Made by a program: the position numbers and the translations under genes. From Candidatus Cloacimonadota bacterium (GTDB lineage: Bacteria > Cloacimonadota > Cloacimonadia > G963667145), in the NCBI GenBank assembly GCA_963667255.1, contig OY762940.1, positions 73,421 to 137,420 of the forward strand: DNA of 64,000 nucleotides, in the 5' to 3' direction. Below, piece by piece: positions 2,105 through 55,431 of this stretch. Below the pieces are notes generated by a model. It saw only the letters and a list, made by a program, of their open reading frames with translations, did no database searches and was not told the DNA's origin. Within the stretch, counting starts at the first letter, position 1. Every line of letters begins with the position of its first letter.

Positions 2105-3910
2105 CTAAGTTCTCTTGAATTTCTTTTCCAAATCAGCAATGGTAATCTTGGTGATAGTCGGTCTGCCGTGCGGACAAAAATACGGAACTTGAGTCGCAAA
2201 TAGCTCATTGATAAGGTGGAGCATCTGAATGCCCGACAACTTCTCTCCGGCTTTGATGGCAGCTTTGCAAGCGATACTGGCAGCCAAATTTTCCCGAAAA
2301 TCGCTCTTCCTCTTTAGTCGTTGCTCCAAATCCTCGAAGAAAGAGACAAAGAAATCGGCAGAATTCCAGTCCCTCAACTCCGACGGGACCTCTTGGATAA
2401 CCACGGAATTTCCGCTAAACTCCTTGATAAAAATGCCCACTTTCCCAAAATCATCAATATTTTCCCGCACAGTATCCTTCACACTTTCCGAGAGAAAAGA
2501 GGGCAAATCAACCACAATGGGAAAAGCCAATTTCTGCGTAACCACGGTAGCCCCGTTCAATCTCTGCAACACCCTCTCGTAAAGCACCCTCTCATGAGCA
2601 GCATGCTGGTCGATAGCCAACAATCCACTTTCGTCCTGAATAAAAATATAACTCTGATGCAACTGCCACGGATTGATAATGTTGAGTTCGGAATCGAGAG
2701 AAACCCTGACCGAAGAAACATCTTTCCCAGTTTCTTCCAAATCGTCATCTCCCATATTTCCACCAAAGATATCCAACTGCTCGGAAGCGACCGTTTGCGA
2801 TTTGTCCGTTTTCTTTTGCAAGCGGTTATACATCTGCTTTTCACTCTCCGCCAAAGGTGCAAGATTTTCCTTTACCCTCTCCTGCAACGCCTCGAACTTT
2901 TCTCTTTCCCATGCCAAATAAGCGGTGTTCACAGCCTTGTTTACGCAATTATATACGAGCGAAGTGTCCAAAAACCGCACTTCCTGTTTTGCCGGATGAA
3001 CATTGAAATCGACCAACTCCGCATCAATCTGCAAAAATAGAATGAACGGAGGAACTTTGTTTCCAAATTTTTTAATTGCCGGCTCGTAACCCTTGGCAAT
3101 TGCGTGAAAAATCAATGGATTTTTTACAAATCGACCGTTAATAAACAGATATTTCATATTCGGGAAAAGTTCCGAAGATTTCTCAAAATTGCCTATAAAC
3201 CCGCTCACTGTAACGGTTGGCTTTTCAAAAGAATCGACTGGGATAAACTCGGCATCGATAAATTTTTTCCCGAAAACCAACTCAACTCGCTTCAAGCTGT
3301 TTTTCATTGCAGGGTAGTCAAAAATCTTGCGGTCGTTGTGATATAGAACAAAGTGAATATCAGGATGAACGACAGTCTGACAGTGAAGATAGTTCAAAAT
3401 GTGGCGATACTCAACATCTGTCGATTTCAGGAATTTCCGTCGGGCAGGCAACTTCAGAAATAAACTGGTAACTTTGATGGTTGTGCCGTTCACACCGCTA
3501 CTTTTTTCCATCGCCTTCAGCACACCAAAATTGAAAATAATCTTGTTCGCCAACATCTCATCAGCGGTCTTGCTAACCATCTCCACTCTCGCCACAGAAG
3601 CGATGCTCGGTAGAGCCTCTCCTCTAAATCCCAAAGATTTAACCCTAAAAATGTCCGCTTCCGTCGCAATTTTGCTGGTGGCATGTCGCTCAAAAGCAAG
3701 CATCATATCTTGCGAATCCATCCCCTCACCATCATCAATAACCGTGACACCTCTCTTGCCGCCCATCAAAATCCGCACTTCGATGTTAGTCGCCTTGGCA
3801 TCGATAGAGTTCTCCACCAGTTCCTTCACAATGGAATAGGGTCGCTCGATGACCTCACCAGCAGCTATTTTGTTGGAAACTTGCTCGGACAGTATATTAA
3901 TTTTGCTCAT
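2105..3910 (-). CDS. mutL: DNA mismatch repair protein MutL
   Basis: 601 aa. N-terminal GHKL ATPase motifs (ELVENSIDA, VIDDGEGM). C-terminal dimerization domain. Confidence 0.9.
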   Translation of the reverse strand: MSKINILSEQVSNKIAAGEVIERPYSIVKELVENSIDAKATNIEVRILMGGKRGVTVIDDGEGMDSQDMMLAFERHATSKIATEADIFRVKSLGFRGEALPSIASVARVEMVSKTADEMLANKIIFNFGVLKAMEKSSGVNGTTIKVTSLFLKLPARRKFLKSTDVEYRHILNYLHCQTVVHPDIHFVLYHNDRKIFDYPAMKNSLKRVELVFGKKFIDAEFIPVDSFEKPTVTVSGFIGNFEKSSELFPNMKYLFINGRFVKNPLIFHAIAKGYEPAIKKFGNKVPPFILFLQIDAELVDFNVHPAKQEVRFLDTSLVYNCVNKAVNTAYLAWEREKFEALQERVKENLAPLAESEKQMYNRLQKKTDKSQTVASEQLDIFGGNMGDDDLEETGKDVSSVRVSLDSELNIINPWQLHQSYIFIQDESGLLAIDQHAAHERVLYERVLQRLNGATVVTQKLAFPIVVDLPSFLSESVKDTVRENIDDFGKVGIFIKEFSGNSVVIQEVPSELRDWNSADFFVSFFEDLEQRLKRKSDFRENLAASIACKAAIKAGEKLSGIQMLHLINELFATQVPYFCPHGRPTITKITIADLEKKFKRT

Positions 3911-4830
3911 TTCTTCATTTTATCCCTGGGATGATTTTTTTTGTAAATTTCCTTGATTTTGCTGAGACTGACATGCGTGTAAATCTCCGTCGTCGATAAG
4001 TTGGAATGCCCCAACATCTCTTGAACCGCTTTCAAATCTGCCCCCGCATCCAATAAGTGTGTCGCAAAAGAGTGACGAATGCTGTGCGGAGAACAGCCTT
4101 TGCTGTCAGCCACCAAGTCCAAATATCTGCCAATAATCTGTCTCAACTGGTCAGCATCCATCGGCAATCCACTCTTGGAAACAAACAAAACTTCCGTATC
4201 CCGAGGAGAGAAACTATCGCGGATTTTCAAATAATCGGACAGAGCCTGCAACGCAAATTTTCCCACAGGCACTATTCGCTGCTTATTGCCTTTTCCTATC
4301 AAATCTATCAACCCTTTTTTGAAATCTATCTGACCAATTGTGCAAGAAGCCACTTCCGAAATCCGCAGTCCACACGAATACATCAACTCCAAAATCGCCT
4401 TGTTGCGAATCCCAAATTTGTCATTATTTTCCGGAATGGACAACAGCCTTTCCATCTGATTTTTATCGAGAAAGACAGGCAAATGCGAACTGAATTTCGG
4501 CAACTTCATCCCCGCAACAAGATTGCTCTTGACCAGACCCTCTTTGAACATATAAGCATAAAAATCCTTAATCACCACCATTTTGTGCGACATCGACCTA
4601 TTGCTCAGTCCCTTCTGCATCGACTTGGCAAAATAAGCCTTCAACACAACCTTGCTCACCTTATCCAAATCCGCTTCATCTCCGAAGCCCTCTTTGATAA
4701 AACCGCTAAAATCTTTCAGTTCATTTTGATAAGAAGTGATGGTATTTTCCGCCATCTCTCTGGCTCTCATATAGTCCAAATATTTTTTAATTTTCATATC
4801 CAACATAACAAAAGAACTCTCTTTTATCAT
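3907..4830 (-). CDS. Tyrosine site-specific recombinase of the XerC/XerD family
   Basis: 307 aa. Catalytic R...HxxR...Y signature (SIRHSFATHLL, LGHSNLSTTEIYTHV). Start overlaps the mutL stop by 4 nt. Confidence 0.85.
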   Translation of the reverse strand: MIKESSFVMLDMKIKKYLDYMRAREMAENTITSYQNELKDFSGFIKEGFGDEADLDKVSKVVLKAYFAKSMQKGLSNRSMSHKMVVIKDFYAYMFKEGLVKSNLVAGMKLPKFSSHLPVFLDKNQMERLLSIPENNDKFGIRNKAILELMYSCGLRISEVASCTIGQIDFKKGLIDLIGKGNKQRIVPVGKFALQALSDYLKIRDSFSPRDTEVLFVSKSGLPMDADQLRQIIGRYLDLVADSKGCSPHSIRHSFATHLLDAGADLKAVQEMLGHSNLSTTEIYTHVSLSKIKEIYKKNHPRDKMKK

Positions 4831-49591: not shown

Positions 49592-49712
<121 letters not shown>

Positions 49713-49877
49713 AAGAGCTTTAAACAAATCGTTATGATAAAAAAGTTGGTGAGATATTAAAAAGAAAAAAATAAGCCAATGGAACAATTAGTATCACTCG
49801 GCTGAGAGCATTACTACTCTTACACCTGTGACCTATCAACGTTGTAGTCTCCAACGGTTCTCATAGGGAAATCTATT

Positions 49878-49919
<42 letters not shown>

Positions 49920-50036
49920 TTCCAAACTTAGCTACTCGGCAATGCAGCTGACGCCACAACCGATACACCAGAGGTTTGTTCACACCGGTCCTCTCGTACT
50001 AGATGCAAATCCTCTCAAATTTCCTACTCCCACGAA

Positions 50037-50083
<47 letters not shown>

Positions 50084-50106
50084 ACTCTTTAATTGGCGAA
50101 CAGCCA

Positions 50107-50137
<31 letters not shown>

Positions 50138-50193
50138 AGTTGAGCCGACATCGAGGTGCCAAACACCGCCGTCGATATGAACTCTTAGGCGGT

Positions 50194-50226
<33 letters not shown>

Positions 50227-50384
50227 TTTGAGCAACGGCCCTTCCATACAGAGCCGCCGGATCACTAAGACCTGCTTTCGCATCTGCTCGACCCGTCAGT
50301 CTCGCAGTTAAGCTCCCTTATACCTTTATGCTCTTCGATTGATTGCCGACCAATCTGAGGGAACCTTTGTAAGCCTCCGTTACT

Positions 50385-50417
<33 letters not shown>

Positions 50418-50668
50418 ACCAGACAATGTCTGCTAGTAGGGTAACTACTAGCGTTAGTGATTCAACAACATAAGGGTGGTATTTCAAGGTTGACTCCACG
50501 GCGACTAGCGTCACCGCTTCAAAATCTCCCACCTATCCTACACATACCTCATCAAATCACAATGTCAAGCTATAGTAAAGGTTCACGGGGTCTTTCCGTC
50601 CGTTCGCGGGTAGGCGGCATCTTCACCGCCACTACAATTTCACCGAGATCCTGGTTGAGACAGTATTC

Positions 50669-50765
<97 letters not shown>

Positions 50766-51461
50766 ACTCAAGAGCTTGCACTCTCTCACTTAACCTTCCG
50801 GCACCGGGCAGGTGTCAGTCTATATACTTTCTTTTGCAAGTTTGCATAGACCTGTGTTTTTGATAAACAGTCGCTTGAATCTTTTCACTGCGGCCGGGGG
50901 CATGCTCATACCGCGAAGGTAATCACTTCCCCCGGCACCCCTTCTCCCGAAGTTACGGGGTCAATATGCCGAGTTCCTTAACCAGAATTCTCTCGAACAC
51001 CTTAGGATACTCTCCTCACCCACCTGAGTCGGTTTGGGGTACGGTCTGTTATGACATAAACGCTTAGAAGTTATTTCTTGGCAGCACTATAGGTGGACTT
51101 TGCGAGCATAAGCTCTCGTCCTGTGTCTCAGAATATTGCTCGGCGGATTTGCCAACCGAACTTCTTACGCACATTCAACACCACTTTCAGCCGGTGTCTC
51201 CACTGCAACGCCGCGTCACTCCATCACTTCCCATAACAGGTTCTGGAATATTAACCAGATTCCCATCAGCTACCCTGGAAACCAGACTCGCCTTAGGGGC
51301 CGACTAACCCTGAGCAGATTTTCTTTACTCAGGAAACCTTGGGTTTTCGGTGTGCGGACTTCTCATCCGCATTATCGCTACTCATGCTAGCATTCTCTCT
51401 TGTAGCCACTCCAGCATCTCTTACAAGACACCTTCAACGCCGACTACAATGCTCTCCTACC

Positions 51462-51770
51462 CCAAGCACCTATTTTTAACTTCAAACTTTATCAGAATTT
51501 TCAACTCTCTTTAATAAATGTCTTTTAGAATTGCCATTCTGTTTCAGCATTCTTTCTCTTTTTCTCGCATCACTTTCCGATAAATAAGCTTCATAATATA
51601 CAAGCTTCCAATTACCAAAACTTGTATACTCACTCTTACCACTCAAATGCTCAGAAATCCGTCATTTTAAATCCTTGGTGTAACCAATATAATGTAAGTT
51701 TCTATTTATTTCAGTAAATAGACATCATACATAGCTACTCCTTAATTCAAAATTAAAAATAGGTGCTTGG
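51462..51770 (-). mobile_element. 23S rRNA intervening sequence (IVS) at the helix-45 region, bounded by 18-bp perfect inverted repeats
   Basis: CCAAGCACCTATTTTTAA at 51462-51479 and TTAAAAATAGGTGCTTGG at 51753-51770. It interrupts the otherwise conserved ...ACCGAAATCGCGG | GGTAGGAGAGCATTG... 23S sequence. Confidence 0.8.
51482..51732 (-). pseudogene. Degenerate GIY-YIG nuclease-family gene inside the IVS, with two frame disruptions
   Basis: AAGGAG RBS, then ATG: MYDVYLLK*. Frame shift: NRNLHYIGYTKDLK*. Frame shift: RISEHLSGKSEYTSFGNWKLVYYEAYLSESDARKRERMLKQNGNSKRHLLKRVENSDKV*. These pieces match the GIY...YIG...R...E...N layout of small GIY-YIG proteins. Confidence 0.7.
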
Positions 51771-52447
51771 CCGCGATTTCGGTATTATACTTATCAGTCC
51801 CGATCATCTTCGGTGCATTACCACTTAACCAGTGAGCTATTACGCACTCTTTAAATGATAGCTGCTTCTAAGCTAACATCCTGGCTGTCTTTGCAATAAA
51901 ACATCCTTTCTCACTAAGTATAAATTTAGGGACCTTAATCGTCGGTTAGGGATCTTTCCCTCTCGCCCATGGAGCTTATCCCCCACAGACTGTCTCCCTT
52001 ACATCAAATTACGGTATTCGGAGTTTATTAAGGTTCGGTAGGCTTGTAGGCCCCCTAGCCTAATTAGTGCTCTACCCCCGCAATTCTAATAAGAGGCACT
52101 GCCTAAACAGTTTTCGGAGAGAACCAGATATCGCCCGGTTTGATTGGCCTTTCACCCCTACCAACAGCTCATCCACTGATTTTTCAACATCAGTTGGTTC
52201 GGTCCTCCATTTGGTTTTACCCAAACTTCAACCTGGCCATAGGTAGATCACCGGGTTTCGGGTCTAATCCTGCCAACTAAACGCGCTATTAACACTCGCT
52301 TTCGCTTCGGCTCCATCACTTTATGATTTAACCTTGCTGACAAAATTAACTCGCTAGCTCATTATACAAAAGGCACGCCATCGCCCGACAAGCAGGCTCT
52401 GACTGATTATAAACATACGGTTTCAGATACTATTTCACTCCCCTTCC

Positions 52448-52495
<48 letters not shown>

Positions 52496-52680
52496 AAAAT
52501 GTATTTAGCCTTACCGGATGGTCCCGGCAGATTCAGACAGGGTTTCACGTGCCCCGCCCTACTTGGGATACTGCTACAGCAGATACAGAATTTCGTCTAC
52601 AGGAGTTTCACCTTCTTCGCTCCAGCTTTCCAGCTAAGTTCGACTATCCTCTATCAGTCCGATATCGCAGTCCCGCAACC

Positions 52681-52759
52681 CCAAGCACCTATTTTTAACT
52701 CGTTTCTATTCTCTAATTCTGTTTGCAATTCCTTCTCAGAATTAAAAATAGGTGCTTGG
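52681..52759 (-). mobile_element. Second, miniature 23S IVS (79 bp) with the same 18-bp terminal inverted repeats, in a domain-I variable region (near E. coli position ~280)
   Basis: CCAAGCACCTATTTTTAA...TTAAAAATAGGTGCTTGG flanking a 43-bp core. Inserted after conserved GGCGAGCGAACGGGAAAGAGCC. Confidence 0.75.
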
Positions 52760-53167
52760 TTTAGGCTCTTTCCCGTTCGCTCGCCACTACTTAGGAAATC
52801 ATTATTTATTTTCTTTTCCTGCGGTTACCTTAGATGTTTCAATTCACCGCGTATGCCTCAAGTAAAGTACTTGATAGTCAGGTATAACCCTGACTGGGTT
52901 GCCCCATTCGGAAATTCCCGGGTCAAAGCTTGCTTACAGCTATCCGAGACTTATCGCAGCAAACCACGTCCTTCTTCGCCATTTTTGCGCCAAGGCATTC
53001 ACCGTATGCCCTTTCTACTTAATTTTTCGATTCTCTTTAATAATCTCACCACTTCTATAAAACTTCTTCTTAAAAGAACTATAAAATAAATTACTAGCCC
53101 AAAAATTGAGCCATTAATTTATTCTTTATACTCATCAATCAAATCGCTCATCCATCACAAAAAAAAA

Positions 53168-53243
<76 letters not shown>

Positions 53244-53322: not shown

Positions 53323-53670
53323 CTAATTACTCTTAGATTTTTTAACTATTGTGGTCAGAAGTTTAATTATCTCTATCAAATCACATTTGAGGCTATCAAT
53401 TTCATCCTCTGTCAAATAAGCATCTGCCAACAAATCCAGCCAGTATTCTGTTTCTCCAGCCTCTTTGAGAGCTATTGACAGTTTTGATATGAAATCTTTT
53501 TTGCTTTGAGCGTTCTGACTTTCTCTGATATTAGCACCTATCGAAGTACCGCTTCTTAAAATCTGTTTCGAAAGCACATACTCATTTTTGACAGCTGTCA
53601 GATGCCGATAAAACCTAACAATTCGCTTTGCAAACTGAAAAGCCTTGTCATAAACAATATTATCTTTCAT
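53323..53670 (-). CDS. Four-helix-bundle protein of the '23S rRNA-intervening-sequence protein' family, encoded in the 16S-23S spacer
   Basis: 115 aa. Family motifs LSKQILRSGTSIGANIRES (family consensus SIxxNIAEG) and LKEAGETEYWLDLL (AxGSxxExxxxL). Sits between tRNA-Ile and tRNA-Ala. Confidence 0.7.
   Translation of the reverse strand: MKDNIVYDKAFQFAKRIVRFYRHLTAVKNEYVLSKQILRSGTSIGANIRESQNAQSKKDFISKLSIALKEAGETEYWLDLLADAYLTEDEIDSLKCDLIEIIKLLTTIVKKSKSN

Positions 53671-53723: not shown

Positions 53724-53800
<77 letters not shown>

Positions 53801-53856: not shown

Positions 53857-55431
<1,575 letters not shown>

What the first reader, a model, noticed from the sequence alone, without database searches (positions are those of the whole stretch)
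51462..51770. 309-bp IVS at the helix-45 region of the 23S rRNA carries a pseudogenized GIY-YIG endonuclease gene with its own RBS
The 23S gene is interrupted between conserved ...CCGAAATCGCGG and GGTAGGAGAGCATTG by a 309-bp block. Its ends are a perfect 18-bp inverted repeat (CCAAGCACCTATTTTTAA / TTAAAAATAGGTGCTTGG), a textbook RNase III substrate stem.

Read in rRNA orientation, the insert contains AAGGAG-N5-ATG followed by three frame-shifted pieces: MYDVYLLK*, NRNLHYIGYTKDLK*, and RISEHLSGKSEYTSFGNWKLVYYEAYLSESDARKRERMLKQNGNSKRHLLKRVENSDKV*. Together these reconstruct the GIY...YIG...R...E...N layout of small stand-alone GIY-YIG proteins.

An IVS that hosts the decaying remains of a GIY-YIG gene suggests these rRNA insertions are, or were, mobile selfish elements. 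I do not recall a GIY-YIG-bearing 23S IVS being reported; GIY-YIG genes are known from group I introns.
Basis: partly seen in the sequence, partly recalled or inferred. Interest (0 to 1): 0.85.

Follow-up and report, generated by a model that had tools for sequence, protein, structure and literature searches.

The report
Decayed nuclease gene inside rRNA hairpin element
The 23S rRNA gene of this Cloacimonadota bacterium carries a hairpin-bounded insert at helix 45 holding a freshly broken copy of a small GIY-YIG nuclease gene; this kind of insert was already known in CPR bacteria, but a second, gene-less copy with identical ends elsewhere in the same rRNA gene suggests these inserts move.

Summary
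A 309-nt block (51462-51770, minus strand) replaces helix 45 (E. coli 1164-1185) of a complete 23S gene. It has an 18-bp perfect inverted repeat (27 bp as RNA), AAGGAG-N5-ATG and a broken GIY-YIG gene (Pfam E=5.7e-11 when repaired).

Corrections: the lesions are one 4-nt slip deletion, one in-frame CGA>TGA and Y3D, not three frameshifted pieces. The protein is a minimal Slx1/UPF0213-type GIY-YIG, not an I-TevI-type homing enzyme.

An intact copy that differs only at these lesions appears to sit in another rrn operon of the same genome. Relatives carry intact copies at the same site under strong purifying selection (dN/dS 0.06).

The novelty claim fails: GIY-YIG ORFs in non-intron rRNA insertions are published for CPR bacteria. 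This is a new member, in Cloacimonadota.

New here:
- The same 23S holds a 79-nt ORF-less element with identical arms (52681-52759).
- A sister genome has empty and filled sites swapped at three other helices.
- Arms share a CC-N-R-GCAC motif across phyla.
- Other relatives sit directly 5' of tRNA genes.

This supports a mobile hairpin element. Excision by RNase III and nuclease-driven mobility remain inferred.

The parts
49767..53024 (-). Host 23S rRNA gene, complete. It is part of a 16S - tRNA-Ile - tRNA-Ala - 23S - 5S operon.
   Evidence: Rfam LSU_rRNA_bacteria, 2721 bits, model positions 1-2925. tRNA identities.
51462..51770 (-). Helix-45 intervening sequence: a 309-nt hairpin-bounded element carrying the GIY-YIG pseudogene. 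It replaces E. coli 23S positions 1164-1185.
   Evidence: GC is 30.4% against 47.8% for the rest of the 23S. No Rfam family was found inside it.
51744..51770 (-). 5' arm of the terminal stem in rRNA orientation. The outer 18 nt, CCAAGCACCTATTTTTAA (51753-51770), pair perfectly. The stem extends to 27 bp as RNA.
51462..51488 (-). 3' arm of the terminal stem. The outer 18 nt, TTAAAAATAGGTGCTTGG (51462-51479), pair perfectly. The gene's TGA stop codon (51482-51484) lies inside this arm.
51738..51743 (-). Shine-Dalgarno sequence AAGGAG, 5 nt upstream of the ATG. It is conserved in the intact sister copy.
   Evidence: The anti-SD CCTCCTTT is at the 16S 3' end.
51706..51732 (-). Piece 1 of the pseudogene: ATG...MYDVYLLK then TAA. 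It contains Y3D (GAT at 51724-51726) and ends because of a 4-nt deletion, the loss of one GAAA unit of GAAAGAAA between 51709 and 51708.
   Evidence: Y3 is at least 90% conserved in the family.
51662..51706 (-). Piece 2: NRNLHYIGYTKDLK. It ends at an in-frame TGA (51662-51664) where intact relatives encode Arg (CGA/CGT).
51482..51661 (-). Piece 3, in the same frame as piece 2: RISEHLSGK...RVENSDKV then TGA. The 54-aa TTG-started ORF 51482-51646 is the only part a gene caller sees (P0003).
52681..52759 (-). Second element in the same 23S (rRNA positions 266-344), 79 nt and ORF-less. Its 18-bp arms are identical to those of the helix-45 IVS. It also shares the first ~37 nt, including a degenerate SD (AAGGAA), and the last ~21 nt. 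In the sister genome a native 20-nt hairpin occupies this site.
   Evidence: The arm occurs 4 times in the window, all within the 23S, against 0.12 expected.

Best explanation
The block is one copy of a hairpin-bounded selfish element that lives in the tips of rRNA helices. Its cargo is an ~84-aa minimal GIY-YIG nuclease of the Slx1/UPF0213 type.

How it most likely works:
1. The element has no promoter of its own and is transcribed as part of the rrn precursor. This is shown indirectly: all 28 rRNA-embedded relatives are co-oriented with the rRNA, and the insert shows no promoter signal above chance.
2. Its inverted-repeat ends extend helix 45 into a ~27-bp double-stranded RNA stem. RNase III cuts this stem and removes the element, leaving a fragmented but functional 23S. 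This is inferred from the anatomy and from the experimentally characterised Coxiella and Salmonella helix-45 IVSs.
3. The precursor or the released ~270-nt RNA serves as mRNA, with AAGGAG-N5-ATG just inside the stem. In intact copies the nuclease is made. This is inferred from dN/dS of 0.06 and the conserved SD.
4. The nuclease promotes spread or retention of the element at DNA level, probably by recognising hairpin or cruciform structure or the conserved CC-N-R-GCAC termini rather than a long target sequence. Whole native hairpins are then replaced by the element. This is inferred from identical arms at different helices, swapped filled and empty sites between sister genomes, ORF-less derivatives, and site-specific protein clades.

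In this window's copy the nuclease gene has just died through a GAAA slip deletion, a CGA>TGA change and Y3D. The stem and leader, which are needed to get the insert out of the ribosome, are untouched. An intact copy apparently persists in another rrn operon of the same 1.59-Mb genome.
For: Anatomy and site:
- establish the insert, its stem and its helix-45 position.
- It is not an intron. No ribozyme family appears at gathering threshold or at E<=10, and only ~54 nt of the insert are non-coding.

The gene:
- Pfam GIY-YIG at E=5.7e-11 for the repaired protein and 2.1e-16 for the intact P0001.
- AF2 model at pLDDT 89.5. The best PDB matches are UPF0213 1ZG2 and Slx1, followed by I-TevI and UvrC.

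Recent decay:
- Restoring GAAA and changing TGA back to CGA gives P0001 exactly, except for Y3D.
- P0001, the window's remnant P0003, the window's spacer ORF P0020 and a second spacer-ORF variant P0021 are each recorded on one contig of 1,587,896 bp.

Selection:
- dN/dS is 0.064 against the intact sister gene.
- The leader is 95% and the last 48 nt are 96% identical between the sister genomes, against 78% for the ORF interior.

Same site in relatives:
- L001 and L082-L090 all carry intact ORFs at E. coli 1163/1186.

Breadth:
- Of the 80 closest relatives among species-representative genomes, 28 lie inside 16S or 23S genes, and all 28 are on the rRNA strand. The recurring hairpin tips are 23S helix 25, helix 45, the helix 68 tip and ~131/177, and 16S helix 6 and helix 17.
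- 20 of 30 rRNA-associated loci have a bracketing stem with z<-3.

Mobility:
- A 79-nt ORF-less copy with identical 18-bp arms sits at 52681-52759.
- The sister genome has a native hairpin at that site, but carries 70-nt elements with the same arms at two other helices where the window has native hairpins.
- ORF-less copies with matching arms also occur in Patescibacteria (L011), Desulfobacterales (L016) and Parcubacteria (L050) loci.
- The GCAC motif is in 20 of 38 arms, against 2.7 expected and a maximum of 10 in 2000 shuffles.
- Protein clades follow insertion site across host groups.

Precedent:
- The Coxiella helix-45 IVS has a 28-bp stem, an ORF in the loop, RNase III excision shown experimentally, 1.2- and 1.7-kb fragments, and a decaying ORF. 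The predicted fragments here are 1254 and 1695 nt.
Against: - No RNA data exist, so excision and 23S fragmentation are unproven.
- No empty helix-45 allele was found in any relative. Mobility is therefore shown for the sibling elements at other helices, not for this copy.
- An 84-aa protein with no DNA-binding domain is unlike any characterised homing endonuclease. Its nearest characterised relative, Slx1, is a host repair enzyme.
- No target-site duplications are seen. The filled sites have dissimilar native sequences, so no known transposition or homing mechanism fits cleanly.
- The tree is a neighbour-joining tree of an ~85-aa protein without support values.
- The 80 loci were found through peptide words such as WKLVYYEA, so the fractions are not unbiased.
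Confidence: 0.7

Rival explanations
1. Domesticated or host-beneficial gene. The small Slx1-like nuclease is a cellular DNA-repair or rDNA-maintenance factor that happens to be parked in stable-RNA transcription units for strong expression. The hairpin arms exist only for RNase III processing. The arm-sharing copies at other helices arose by ectopic gene conversion between rRNA hairpins, without any help from the nuclease.
For: - The closest characterised structural relative is Slx1, a structure-specific repair nuclease that maintains rDNA.
- Purifying selection is strong.
- Many family members sit directly 5' of tRNA genes without bracketing stems, which looks like ordinary co-transcription.
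- About 30 of the 80 loci are neither in rRNA nor adjacent to a tRNA gene.
Against: - A host-essential gene would not be lost so readily in one operon, nor replaced by ORF-less hairpins.
- Elements with the same termini appear at unrelated sites and in non-rRNA loci across phyla. The conserved end motif is not explained by RNase III, which has little sequence preference (established knowledge).
- Gene conversion does not explain the first arrival at a new helix.
Confidence: 0.17
2. Self-excising IVS. The encoded GIY-YIG protein acts on RNA. It recognises the conserved CC-N-R-GCAC stem and cuts the element out of the pre-rRNA itself. The dead copy here depends on protein supplied by the intact copy in the other operon.
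For: - The stem-end motif is conserved across phyla and across sites.
- Termini are conserved far above the level of synonymous sites.
- An intact and a dead copy coexist in one genome.
- The protein is strongly basic, with net charge about +8 counted from the sequence.
Against: - Characterised GIY-YIG enzymes are DNA nucleases (PMC1564403).
- RNase III is sufficient for every IVS tested so far.
- The ORF-less copies in non-rRNA DNA have no obvious need for RNA excision.
Confidence: 0.06
3. Retained expansion segment. The 309 nt stay in the mature 23S as an enlarged helix 45, and the ORF is a relic without any present function.
For: - Helix 45 is a surface hairpin that tolerates length variation.
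- There are no RNA data for this organism.
Against: - The perfect 18-bp / 27-bp stem is conserved at 100% between sister genomes while the interior diverges.
- The SD and the intact ORFs are maintained under purifying selection in relatives.
- Every experimentally studied helix-45 insert of this anatomy is excised.
Confidence: 0.06
4. Group I or group II intron carrying a degenerate homing-endonuclease gene.
For: - GIY-YIG genes are classic group I intron cargo.
Against: - No intron family is detected at the gathering threshold or at E<=10.
- Only ~54 nt lie outside the ORF.
- The site is a variable hairpin tip, not a conserved core site.
- Tsurumaki et al. likewise found all CPR GIY-YIG ORFs outside introns.
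Confidence: 0.01

Closest known systems
Helix-45 IVS of Coxiella burnetii, with relatives in Leptospira, Brucella, Xanthomonas and Haemophilus, carrying the S23p / PF05635 ORF (Warrier et al. 2016, PMC4990558)
   Same: - Same rRNA helix.
- Same layout: a ~28-bp terminal inverted-repeat stem with the ORF filling the loop, on the rRNA strand.
- Same predicted 23S fragments (~1.2 and ~1.7 kb).
- The ORF is decaying while the stem is kept.
- It has long been suspected to be a selfish element.
- This window also has a full-length PF05635 ORF, but in the tRNA-Ile/tRNA-Ala spacer.
   Different: - The cargo is a GIY-YIG nuclease, not the four-helix-bundle S23p.
- A strong SD lies inside the stem, whereas in Coxiella the weak SD is cut off by RNase III.
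- Excision is not demonstrated here.
- ORF-less copies sharing the arms are present at other helices.
GIY-YIG ORFs in non-intron rRNA insertion sequences of CPR/Patescibacteria (Brown et al. 2015, as cited by Tsurumaki et al. 2024, PMC11270868)
   Same: - The same kind of object: a GIY-YIG ORF inside a 16S or 23S insertion that resembles neither a group I nor a group II intron, scattered over several sites.
- Several of the relatives found here are those CPR cases.
   Different: - The host is a Cloacimonadota bacterium. Further non-CPR hosts found here include Deferribacter, Methylococcales, Desulfobacterota, Nitrospirales and SAR324.
- That paper catalogued the ORFs and considered them outside homing. 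I found no mention there, in the passages read, of shared termini, ORF-less derivatives, filled/empty polymorphism or tRNA-adjacent lineages.
Prokaryotic Slx1-like / UPF0213 minimal GIY-YIG proteins (BH0048 1ZG2, EF2693 1YWL; Dunin-Horkawicz et al. 2006, PMC1564403)
   Same: - Best sequence and structure matches.
- A stand-alone ~85-100-aa catalytic domain with no accessory domain.
- The same beta-beta-alpha-beta-alpha-alpha topology.
   Different: - Only about 36% identity.
- The UPF0213 proteins have no known function and no reported link to rRNA or tRNA genes.
- This subfamily has its own hallmark motif, WKLVYYEAYLS.
Free-standing GIY-YIG homing endonucleases of phage T4 (SegB in the tRNA gene cluster, PMC2330249) and intron-encoded I-TevI
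   Same: - GIY-YIG catalytic fold.
- Selfish genes lodged among stable-RNA genes.
- Site-specific lineages.
   Different: - Seg and I-TevI proteins carry DNA-binding domains and recognise long targets, whereas this protein is the bare domain.
- Phage families match only marginally, and 1 of 50,697 phage genomes has a weak relative.
MITEs with their autonomous parents, and REP sequences with RAYT genes (own knowledge, not tested against those families here)
   Same: - A protein-coding copy flanked by inverted repeats, plus short ORF-less palindromic copies that share the same ends and are scattered at other sites.
   Different: - No target-site duplication.
- No DDE or Y1 transposase.
- Insertions replace pre-existing hairpins, largely inside stable-RNA genes.

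Membership tests
RNase III-type 23S rRNA intervening sequence (helix-45 IVS) | Replaces or extends the helix-45 hairpin (E. coli 1164-1185) of an otherwise complete 23S gene | tested here: met
   The Rfam alignment places the insert in the hairpin after CCGAA..GCGG. Pairwise alignment to E. coli rrl maps window 23S 1255-1563 onto 1164-1185.
RNase III-type 23S rRNA intervening sequence (helix-45 IVS) | Terminal inverted repeats forming a long (about 20 bp or more) double-stranded stem | tested here: met
   18 bp perfect and 27 bp with G-U pairs. Fold z = -8.1. Shuffles reach at most 11 bp.
RNase III-type 23S rRNA intervening sequence (helix-45 IVS) | Excised by RNase III without re-ligation, leaving a fragmented 23S | not testable with these tools
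   This needs RNA data. The predicted fragments are 1254 + 1695 nt, or 265 + 910 + 1695 nt if the second element is also removed.
RNase III-type 23S rRNA intervening sequence (helix-45 IVS) | Sporadic presence or absence among related genomes or operons | tested here: inconclusive
   The helix-45 copy is present in every relative recovered. The sibling elements at three other helices are present or absent between the two sister genomes.
GIY-YIG nuclease superfamily (Pfam PF01541) | Profile match above the curated threshold | tested here: met
   Repaired window protein 43 bits, intact P0001 60.4 bits, cutoff 22.6.
GIY-YIG nuclease superfamily (Pfam PF01541) | Core fold and catalytic Tyr (GIY), Tyr-x-Gly (YIG), Arg and Glu | tested here: met
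   AF2 model at pLDDT 89.5 with strands E2-9, E15-20 and E43-51 plus helices. Foldseek hits GIY-YIG structures only. Y5, Y16, G18, R26 and E49 are invariant or nearly invariant in the family and are present in the window's codons.
GIY-YIG nuclease superfamily (Pfam PF01541) | An open, translatable gene | tested here: not met
   A 4-nt deletion plus an in-frame TGA, plus Y3D at a residue conserved in at least 90% of the family. This copy is a pseudogene.
Slx1-like / UPF0213 minimal GIY-YIG branch | Closest to 1ZG2, 1YWL and Slx1 rather than to UvrC or I-TevI, with no accessory domain | tested here: met
   phmmer gives 1ZG2 at E=3e-6 and 1YWL at 6.5e-3. Foldseek ranks 1ZG2, then Slx1, then I-TevI and UvrC. 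The protein is 84 aa with a single domain. The branch definition comes from PMC1564403.
Slx1-like / UPF0213 minimal GIY-YIG branch | Absence of the conserved C-terminal Asn of the UvrC / homing-endonuclease lineage | tested here: inconclusive
   No Asn column is invariant or nearly invariant in the 17-sequence alignment. The Cloacimonadota proteins do have N67 and N69, and no structural superposition of that position was made.
GIY-YIG homing endonucleases (I-TevI, Seg proteins) | Catalytic domain joined to a DNA-binding module that reads a long target | tested here: not met
   84 aa in total. Pfam finds only overlapping GIY-YIG-type matches (PF01541, PF13455, PF10544) and no DNA-binding module.
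GIY-YIG homing endonucleases (I-TevI, Seg proteins) | Cleaves the element-free allele at or near the insertion site | not testable with these tools
   This needs a biochemical assay. The empty-site sequences to use are known.
Group I / group II intron | Ribozyme core recognisable by covariance model | tested here: not met
   No intron family is found in the window at the gathering threshold or in the insert at E<=10. Only ~54 nt are non-coding.
CPR-type rRNA insertion sequence with GIY-YIG ORF | GIY-YIG ORF inside a non-intron insertion of a 16S or 23S gene | tested here: met
   The definition comes from PMC11270868.
CPR-type rRNA insertion sequence with GIY-YIG ORF | Host belongs to CPR/Patescibacteria | tested here: not met
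   The closest representative genome is a Candidatus Cloacimonadota MAG (OY762943.1). Its 23S is 98.5% identical to the window's outside the elements.
Autonomous element with MITE-like derivatives | ORF-bearing and ORF-less copies share terminal inverted repeats | tested here: met
   Arms are identical at 18/18, and the leader and tail are also shared. The same is seen in L011, L016 and L050.
Autonomous element with MITE-like derivatives | Target-site duplication flanking insertions | tested here: not met
   No duplication is present. The flanks are unchanged and the whole native hairpin is replaced.

The most novel reading that the evidence does not exclude
These are a previously unrecognised class of bacterial mobile element. 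It is a hairpin-bounded cassette with conserved ends (CC-N-R-GCAC ... GTGC-Y-N-GG) whose only gene is a bare Slx1-like GIY-YIG nuclease. The element is expressed by riding on stable-RNA transcripts. It spreads by structure-directed replacement of existing hairpins at rRNA helix tips and other sites, and it leaves MITE-like ORF-less satellites. If so, classical 23S/16S intervening sequences would be the footprints of such elements, which would answer the 35-year-old question of where IVSs come from.
Probability: 0.35. Interest if true: 0.85.

Novelty: new member of a known kind. Interest (0 to 1): 0.62.

Why it matters
Intervening sequences that fragment bacterial 23S rRNA have been known since 1990. 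They have repeatedly been suspected of being mobile, but no mobility function has ever been tied to them. GIY-YIG ORFs in CPR rRNA insertions have been catalogued but set aside as 'outside homing'.

This locus and its relatives offer a concrete, testable system:
- a nuclease gene inside the IVS;
- an intact and a freshly dead allele, apparently in one genome;
- ORF-less copies with identical ends at other helices;
- defined empty sites in a sister genome;
- a conserved end motif across phyla.

If the nuclease acts on these hairpins, that would explain how IVSs arise and spread, and why they sit at helix tips. It would also explain part of the unusual rRNA gene structure of Patescibacteria, and it would assign a function to the uncharacterised UPF0213-like branch.

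On the practical side, such inserts break rRNA gene callers and 16S/23S-based surveys.

If the nuclease does not act on these hairpins, the finding is simply one more ORF-bearing IVS, now in a new phylum.

Tried and rejected
Dead ends:
- A metagenome scan with the 25-nt 23S flank just upstream of helix 45, meant to catch empty and filled alleles, returned nothing.
- NCBIfam has no model for this protein.
- The literature search for UPF0213/YhbQ returned nothing. The search for GIY-YIG with miniature inverted repeats returned nothing relevant to bacteria. The Patescibacteria tRNA-intron paper does not mention GIY-YIG.

Tests that did not work:
- I suspected that recurring 20-mers upstream of some 'free' loci were 3' ends of other structured RNAs. 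Rfam found only tRNAs. Those 20-mers turned out to be the elements' own conserved arms.
- A mirrored 4-mer test for the arm motif was uninformative because AT-rich words dominate. It was replaced by a test on the arms themselves against shuffles.
- The first duplex script timed out, and one script crashed on a zero dS. Both were rerun.

Rejected:
- Group I/II intron.
- An internal sigma-70 promoter driving the ORF: 2 sites against 1.8 expected, and neither is placed upstream of the ATG on the gene's strand.
- A phage homing-endonuclease origin.
- TGA read as a sense codon: the gene's own stop codon is TGA, in both the window and the sister copy.
Full report
**1. Observation**

The window carries one rrn operon on the minus strand: 16S at 53866-55431, tRNA-Ile, tRNA-Ala, 23S at 49767-53024 and 5S at 49593-49709. 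The 23S matches the bacterial LSU model end to end but is 3258 nt long.

In rRNA orientation the sequence reads ...CCGAAATCGCGG, then a 309-nt block (51770 down to 51462), then GGTAGGAGAGCATTG....
- The block's ends are an 18-bp perfect inverted repeat. The longest in 200 shuffles of the block was 11 bp.
- As RNA the stem runs to 27 bp with G-U pairs, and the element folds at z = -8.1.
- The Rfam alignment puts the block in the hairpin that follows CCGAA..GCGG.
- Alignment to an E. coli rrl gene (L091) maps it exactly onto positions 1164-1185. By established numbering that is helix 45, one of the two classical IVS sites.
- The block is 30% GC against 48% for the rest of the gene.

**2. The gene remnant**

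AAGGAG lies 5 nt before an ATG, and the 16S 3' end carries the anti-SD sequence.
- Joined together, they match Pfam GIY-YIG at E=5.7e-11 over nearly the whole profile. The C-terminal piece alone passes the curated cutoff.
- Aligning against an intact relative shows the true lesions: loss of one GAAA unit from GAAAGAAA, which shifts the frame; an in-frame TGA where relatives have an Arg codon; and Y3D at a residue conserved in at least 90% of the family.
- Pieces 2 and 3 therefore share one frame. This corrects 'three frame-shifted pieces'.
- TGA is a genuine stop codon here, because it also terminates the intact gene.

**3. Intact copies**

A search of 5.8 billion proteins returned P0001, an intact 84-aa protein. 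Undoing the two disabling lesions in the window reproduces P0001 exactly, apart from Y3D.

P0001, the window's own 54-aa remnant (P0003), the window's spacer ORF (P0020) and a second variant of that spacer ORF (P0021) are each recorded on one contig of 1,587,896 bp. The simplest reading is at least two rrn operons in one 1.59-Mb genome, one with a live nuclease gene and this one with a freshly dead copy. I could not fetch that DNA, so this step is inferred.

A sister genome, Candidatus Cloacimonadota MAG OY762943.1 (L001/L002), has an intact 84-aa ORF at the identical site, with the same stem and SD. Its 23S is 98.5% identical to the window's outside the elements. More distant relatives, with 23S 75-85% identical, carry intact P0004 or P0006 at the same site with a recognisably homologous stem.

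Between the window and the sister genome, dN/dS is 0.064. The leader and the last 48 nt are 95-96% identical, against 78% for the ORF interior. So the protein was under selection until very recently, and the termini are under still stronger selection as nucleic acid.

**4. What kind of nuclease**
- The AF2 model is confident, at pLDDT 89.5.
- The best PDB matches by sequence and by fold are the uncharacterised UPF0213 proteins 1ZG2 and 1YWL, then eukaryotic Slx1. The I-TevI and UvrC catalytic domains come after those.
- Dunin-Horkawicz et al. 2006 place 1ZG2 and 1YWL in the prokaryotic Slx1-like cluster. This is the minimal stand-alone form and is distinct from the lineage containing the homing endonucleases.
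- The protein has no second domain.
- Phage protein families match only marginally, and 1 of 50,697 phage genomes has a weak relative.
- It is therefore a GIY-YIG nuclease, but it does not meet the defining architecture of known GIY-YIG homing endonucleases.

**5. What the insert is not**

No intron ribozyme or any other Rfam family is detectable in the insert, even at E<=10. Only about 54 nt are non-coding. No promoter signal exceeds the chance level.

**6. Breadth**

A scan of one genome per species found 305 relatives, and the best 80 were fetched. I mapped them with the window's rRNA and with E. coli rRNA.
- 28 lie inside 16S or 23S genes, and all 28 are on the rRNA strand.
- The recurring sites are hairpin tips: 23S 540/553 (helix 25; 14 loci), 1164-1185 (helix 45), 1866/1875, 131/177, and 16S ~68 and ~439.
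- Two more lie just upstream of a 16S gene.
- Hosts include Patescibacteria, Deferribacter, Methylococcales, Desulfobacterota, Nitrospirales, SAR324 and Verrucomicrobia.
- In 20 of 30 rRNA-associated loci a long stem brackets the ORF at z<-3.
- Unexpectedly, in 15 other loci the ORF ends 0-20 nt before a same-strand tRNA gene, or overlaps it by 2 nt. The tRNAs are Trp, Ser, Glu, Val and Cys.
- A neighbour-joining tree groups the proteins by site: 6 of 6 Trp, 5 of 5 Ser, and helix-25 clades that mix phyla. The tree has no support values and rests on a short protein.
- The 80 loci were found through peptide words, so these fractions are not unbiased.

**7. Prior knowledge**
- Tsurumaki et al. 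2024 (PMC11270868), citing Brown et al. 2015, report LAGLIDADG and GIY-YIG ORFs in CPR rRNA insertions. [quoted passage not shown]
- Warrier et al. 2016 (PMC4990558) show that the Coxiella helix-45 IVS is 428 nt long, has a 28-bp stem and carries an S23p ORF. RNase III excises it to give 1.2- and 1.7-kb fragments, and its ORF is decaying. They also review the old hypothesis that IVS ORFs once served mobility.
This is a new member of a known kind, in a non-CPR phylum.

**8. New evidence for mobility**

While checking extra length in the 23S, I found that 52681-52759 (rRNA positions 266-344) is a 79-nt hairpin whose 18-bp arms are identical to those of the helix-45 IVS. The arm occurs four times in the 64-kb window, all inside the 23S, against 0.12 expected. 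This element also shares the first ~37 nt, including a degenerate SD (AAGGAA), and the last ~21 nt. That is what an internal-deletion derivative would look like.

The sister genome differs at three sites:
- At this site it has only a native 20-nt hairpin.
- At 23S ~150-176 it has a 70-nt element with the same arms, where the window has a native hairpin.
- At helix 25 it has another 70-nt element, where the window again has a native hairpin.

In each case the flanks are unchanged and the whole native hairpin is replaced, with no target-site duplication.

The pattern repeats elsewhere:
- A Patescibacteria 23S (L011) has two ~100-nt ORF-less copies, one of them with compensatory arm changes.
- A Desulfobacterales operon (L016) has copies at the 16S helix-44 tip and at 23S 2789/2806.
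- A non-rRNA Parcubacteria locus (L050) has a 120-nt copy.

Across phyla and sites the outer arms share a CC-N-R-GCAC-Y-T motif. GCAC occurs in 20 of 38 arms, against 2.7 expected and a maximum of 10 in 2000 shuffles. The tRNA-adjacent lineages lack bracketing stems.

**9. Mechanism, and what is shown versus inferred**

Shown:
- the site, the stem and the SD;
- the GIY-YIG identity and the exact lesions;
- intact orthologues under purifying selection;
- strict co-orientation with the rRNA;
- arm-sharing ORF-less copies;
- filled/empty polymorphism at sibling sites;
- the conserved end motif.

Inferred:
- transcription only from the rrn promoter;
- RNase III excision and 23S fragmentation;
- translation from the precursor or from the excised RNA;
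- the same-genome location of the intact allele;
- the nuclease being the agent of spread.

Because the filled sites have dissimilar native sequences and the enzyme is a bare Slx1-like domain, structure-directed or end-motif-directed action is more plausible than classical sequence-specific homing. This last step is the least certain. Rivals are a host-beneficial nuclease merely parked in stable-RNA operons, an RNA-level self-excision role, and a retained expansion segment.

**10. Verdict**

The surrounding evidence turns the long-standing question of whether IVSs are mobile into an experiment with defined substrates, which keeps the interest moderately high.

Noticed in passing
window 52681-52759 (minus strand; 23S positions 266-344): A second, 79-nt ORF-less hairpin element sits in the same 23S gene. 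Its 18-bp arms are identical to those of the helix-45 IVS. The sister genome L001 has only a native 20-nt hairpin at this site.
   Followed up: yes
window 53323-53670 (minus strand), between tRNA-Ile (53724-53800) and tRNA-Ala (53168-53243): A full-length 115-aa PF05635 '23S rRNA intervening sequence protein' ORF (E=9e-30) sits in the 16S-23S spacer, not in the 23S. It is bracketed by imperfect inverted repeats (21 nt at 86%, 38 nt at 74%). The same gene is at the same place in L001, and a second variant (P0021) exists on a contig of the same length. The operon therefore hosts two different 'IVS-type' ORFs.
   Followed up: partly
L001 4810-4879 and 5280-5349 (23S ~150-176 region and helix 25): The sister Cloacimonadota genome carries two 70-nt ORF-less elements at sites where the window has native hairpins. 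Their arms are CCAAGCACCTATTTAA and CCAAGCACATATTTAA, the latter differing by a compensatory change.
   Followed up: yes
L006, L024, L034, L035, L036, L048, L049, L052, L054, L059, L060, L061, L074, L075, L081: In 15 relatives, mostly Patescibacteria, the GIY-YIG ORF ends 0-20 nt before a same-strand tRNA gene (Trp, Ser, Glu, Val or Cys) or overlaps it by 2 nt. The proteins form tRNA-specific clades, and these loci lack bracketing stems. I found no report of this arrangement in the searched literature.
   Followed up: partly
L011 3297-3396 and 3475-3572; L016 1531-1636, 2207-2233 and 5604-5709; L050 2848-2967; L040 1644-1683; L065 7881-7947: Other phyla have ORF-less hairpin elements that share arms with the ORF-bearing copy in the same locus. 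They include copies at the 16S helix-44 tip and at 23S 2789/2806, and some in non-rRNA DNA.
   Followed up: partly
L016 about 3562-4000 (23S helix 45 of a Desulfobacterales MAG): This locus has a GIY-YIG element at helix 25 and also an insert of about 440 nt at helix 45. I did not examine the content of that second insert.
   Followed up: no
L031, L055, L067, L079: In these loci the reading frame that starts with the GIY-YIG domain runs on to 253-671 aa. This could be a fusion to other domains or read-through, and it was not examined.
   Followed up: no
L001 899-1996 and 11063-12255: In the sister genome, transposase-like genes (HTH/rve, and Transposase_mut PF00872) flank the rrn operon on both sides.
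   Followed up: no
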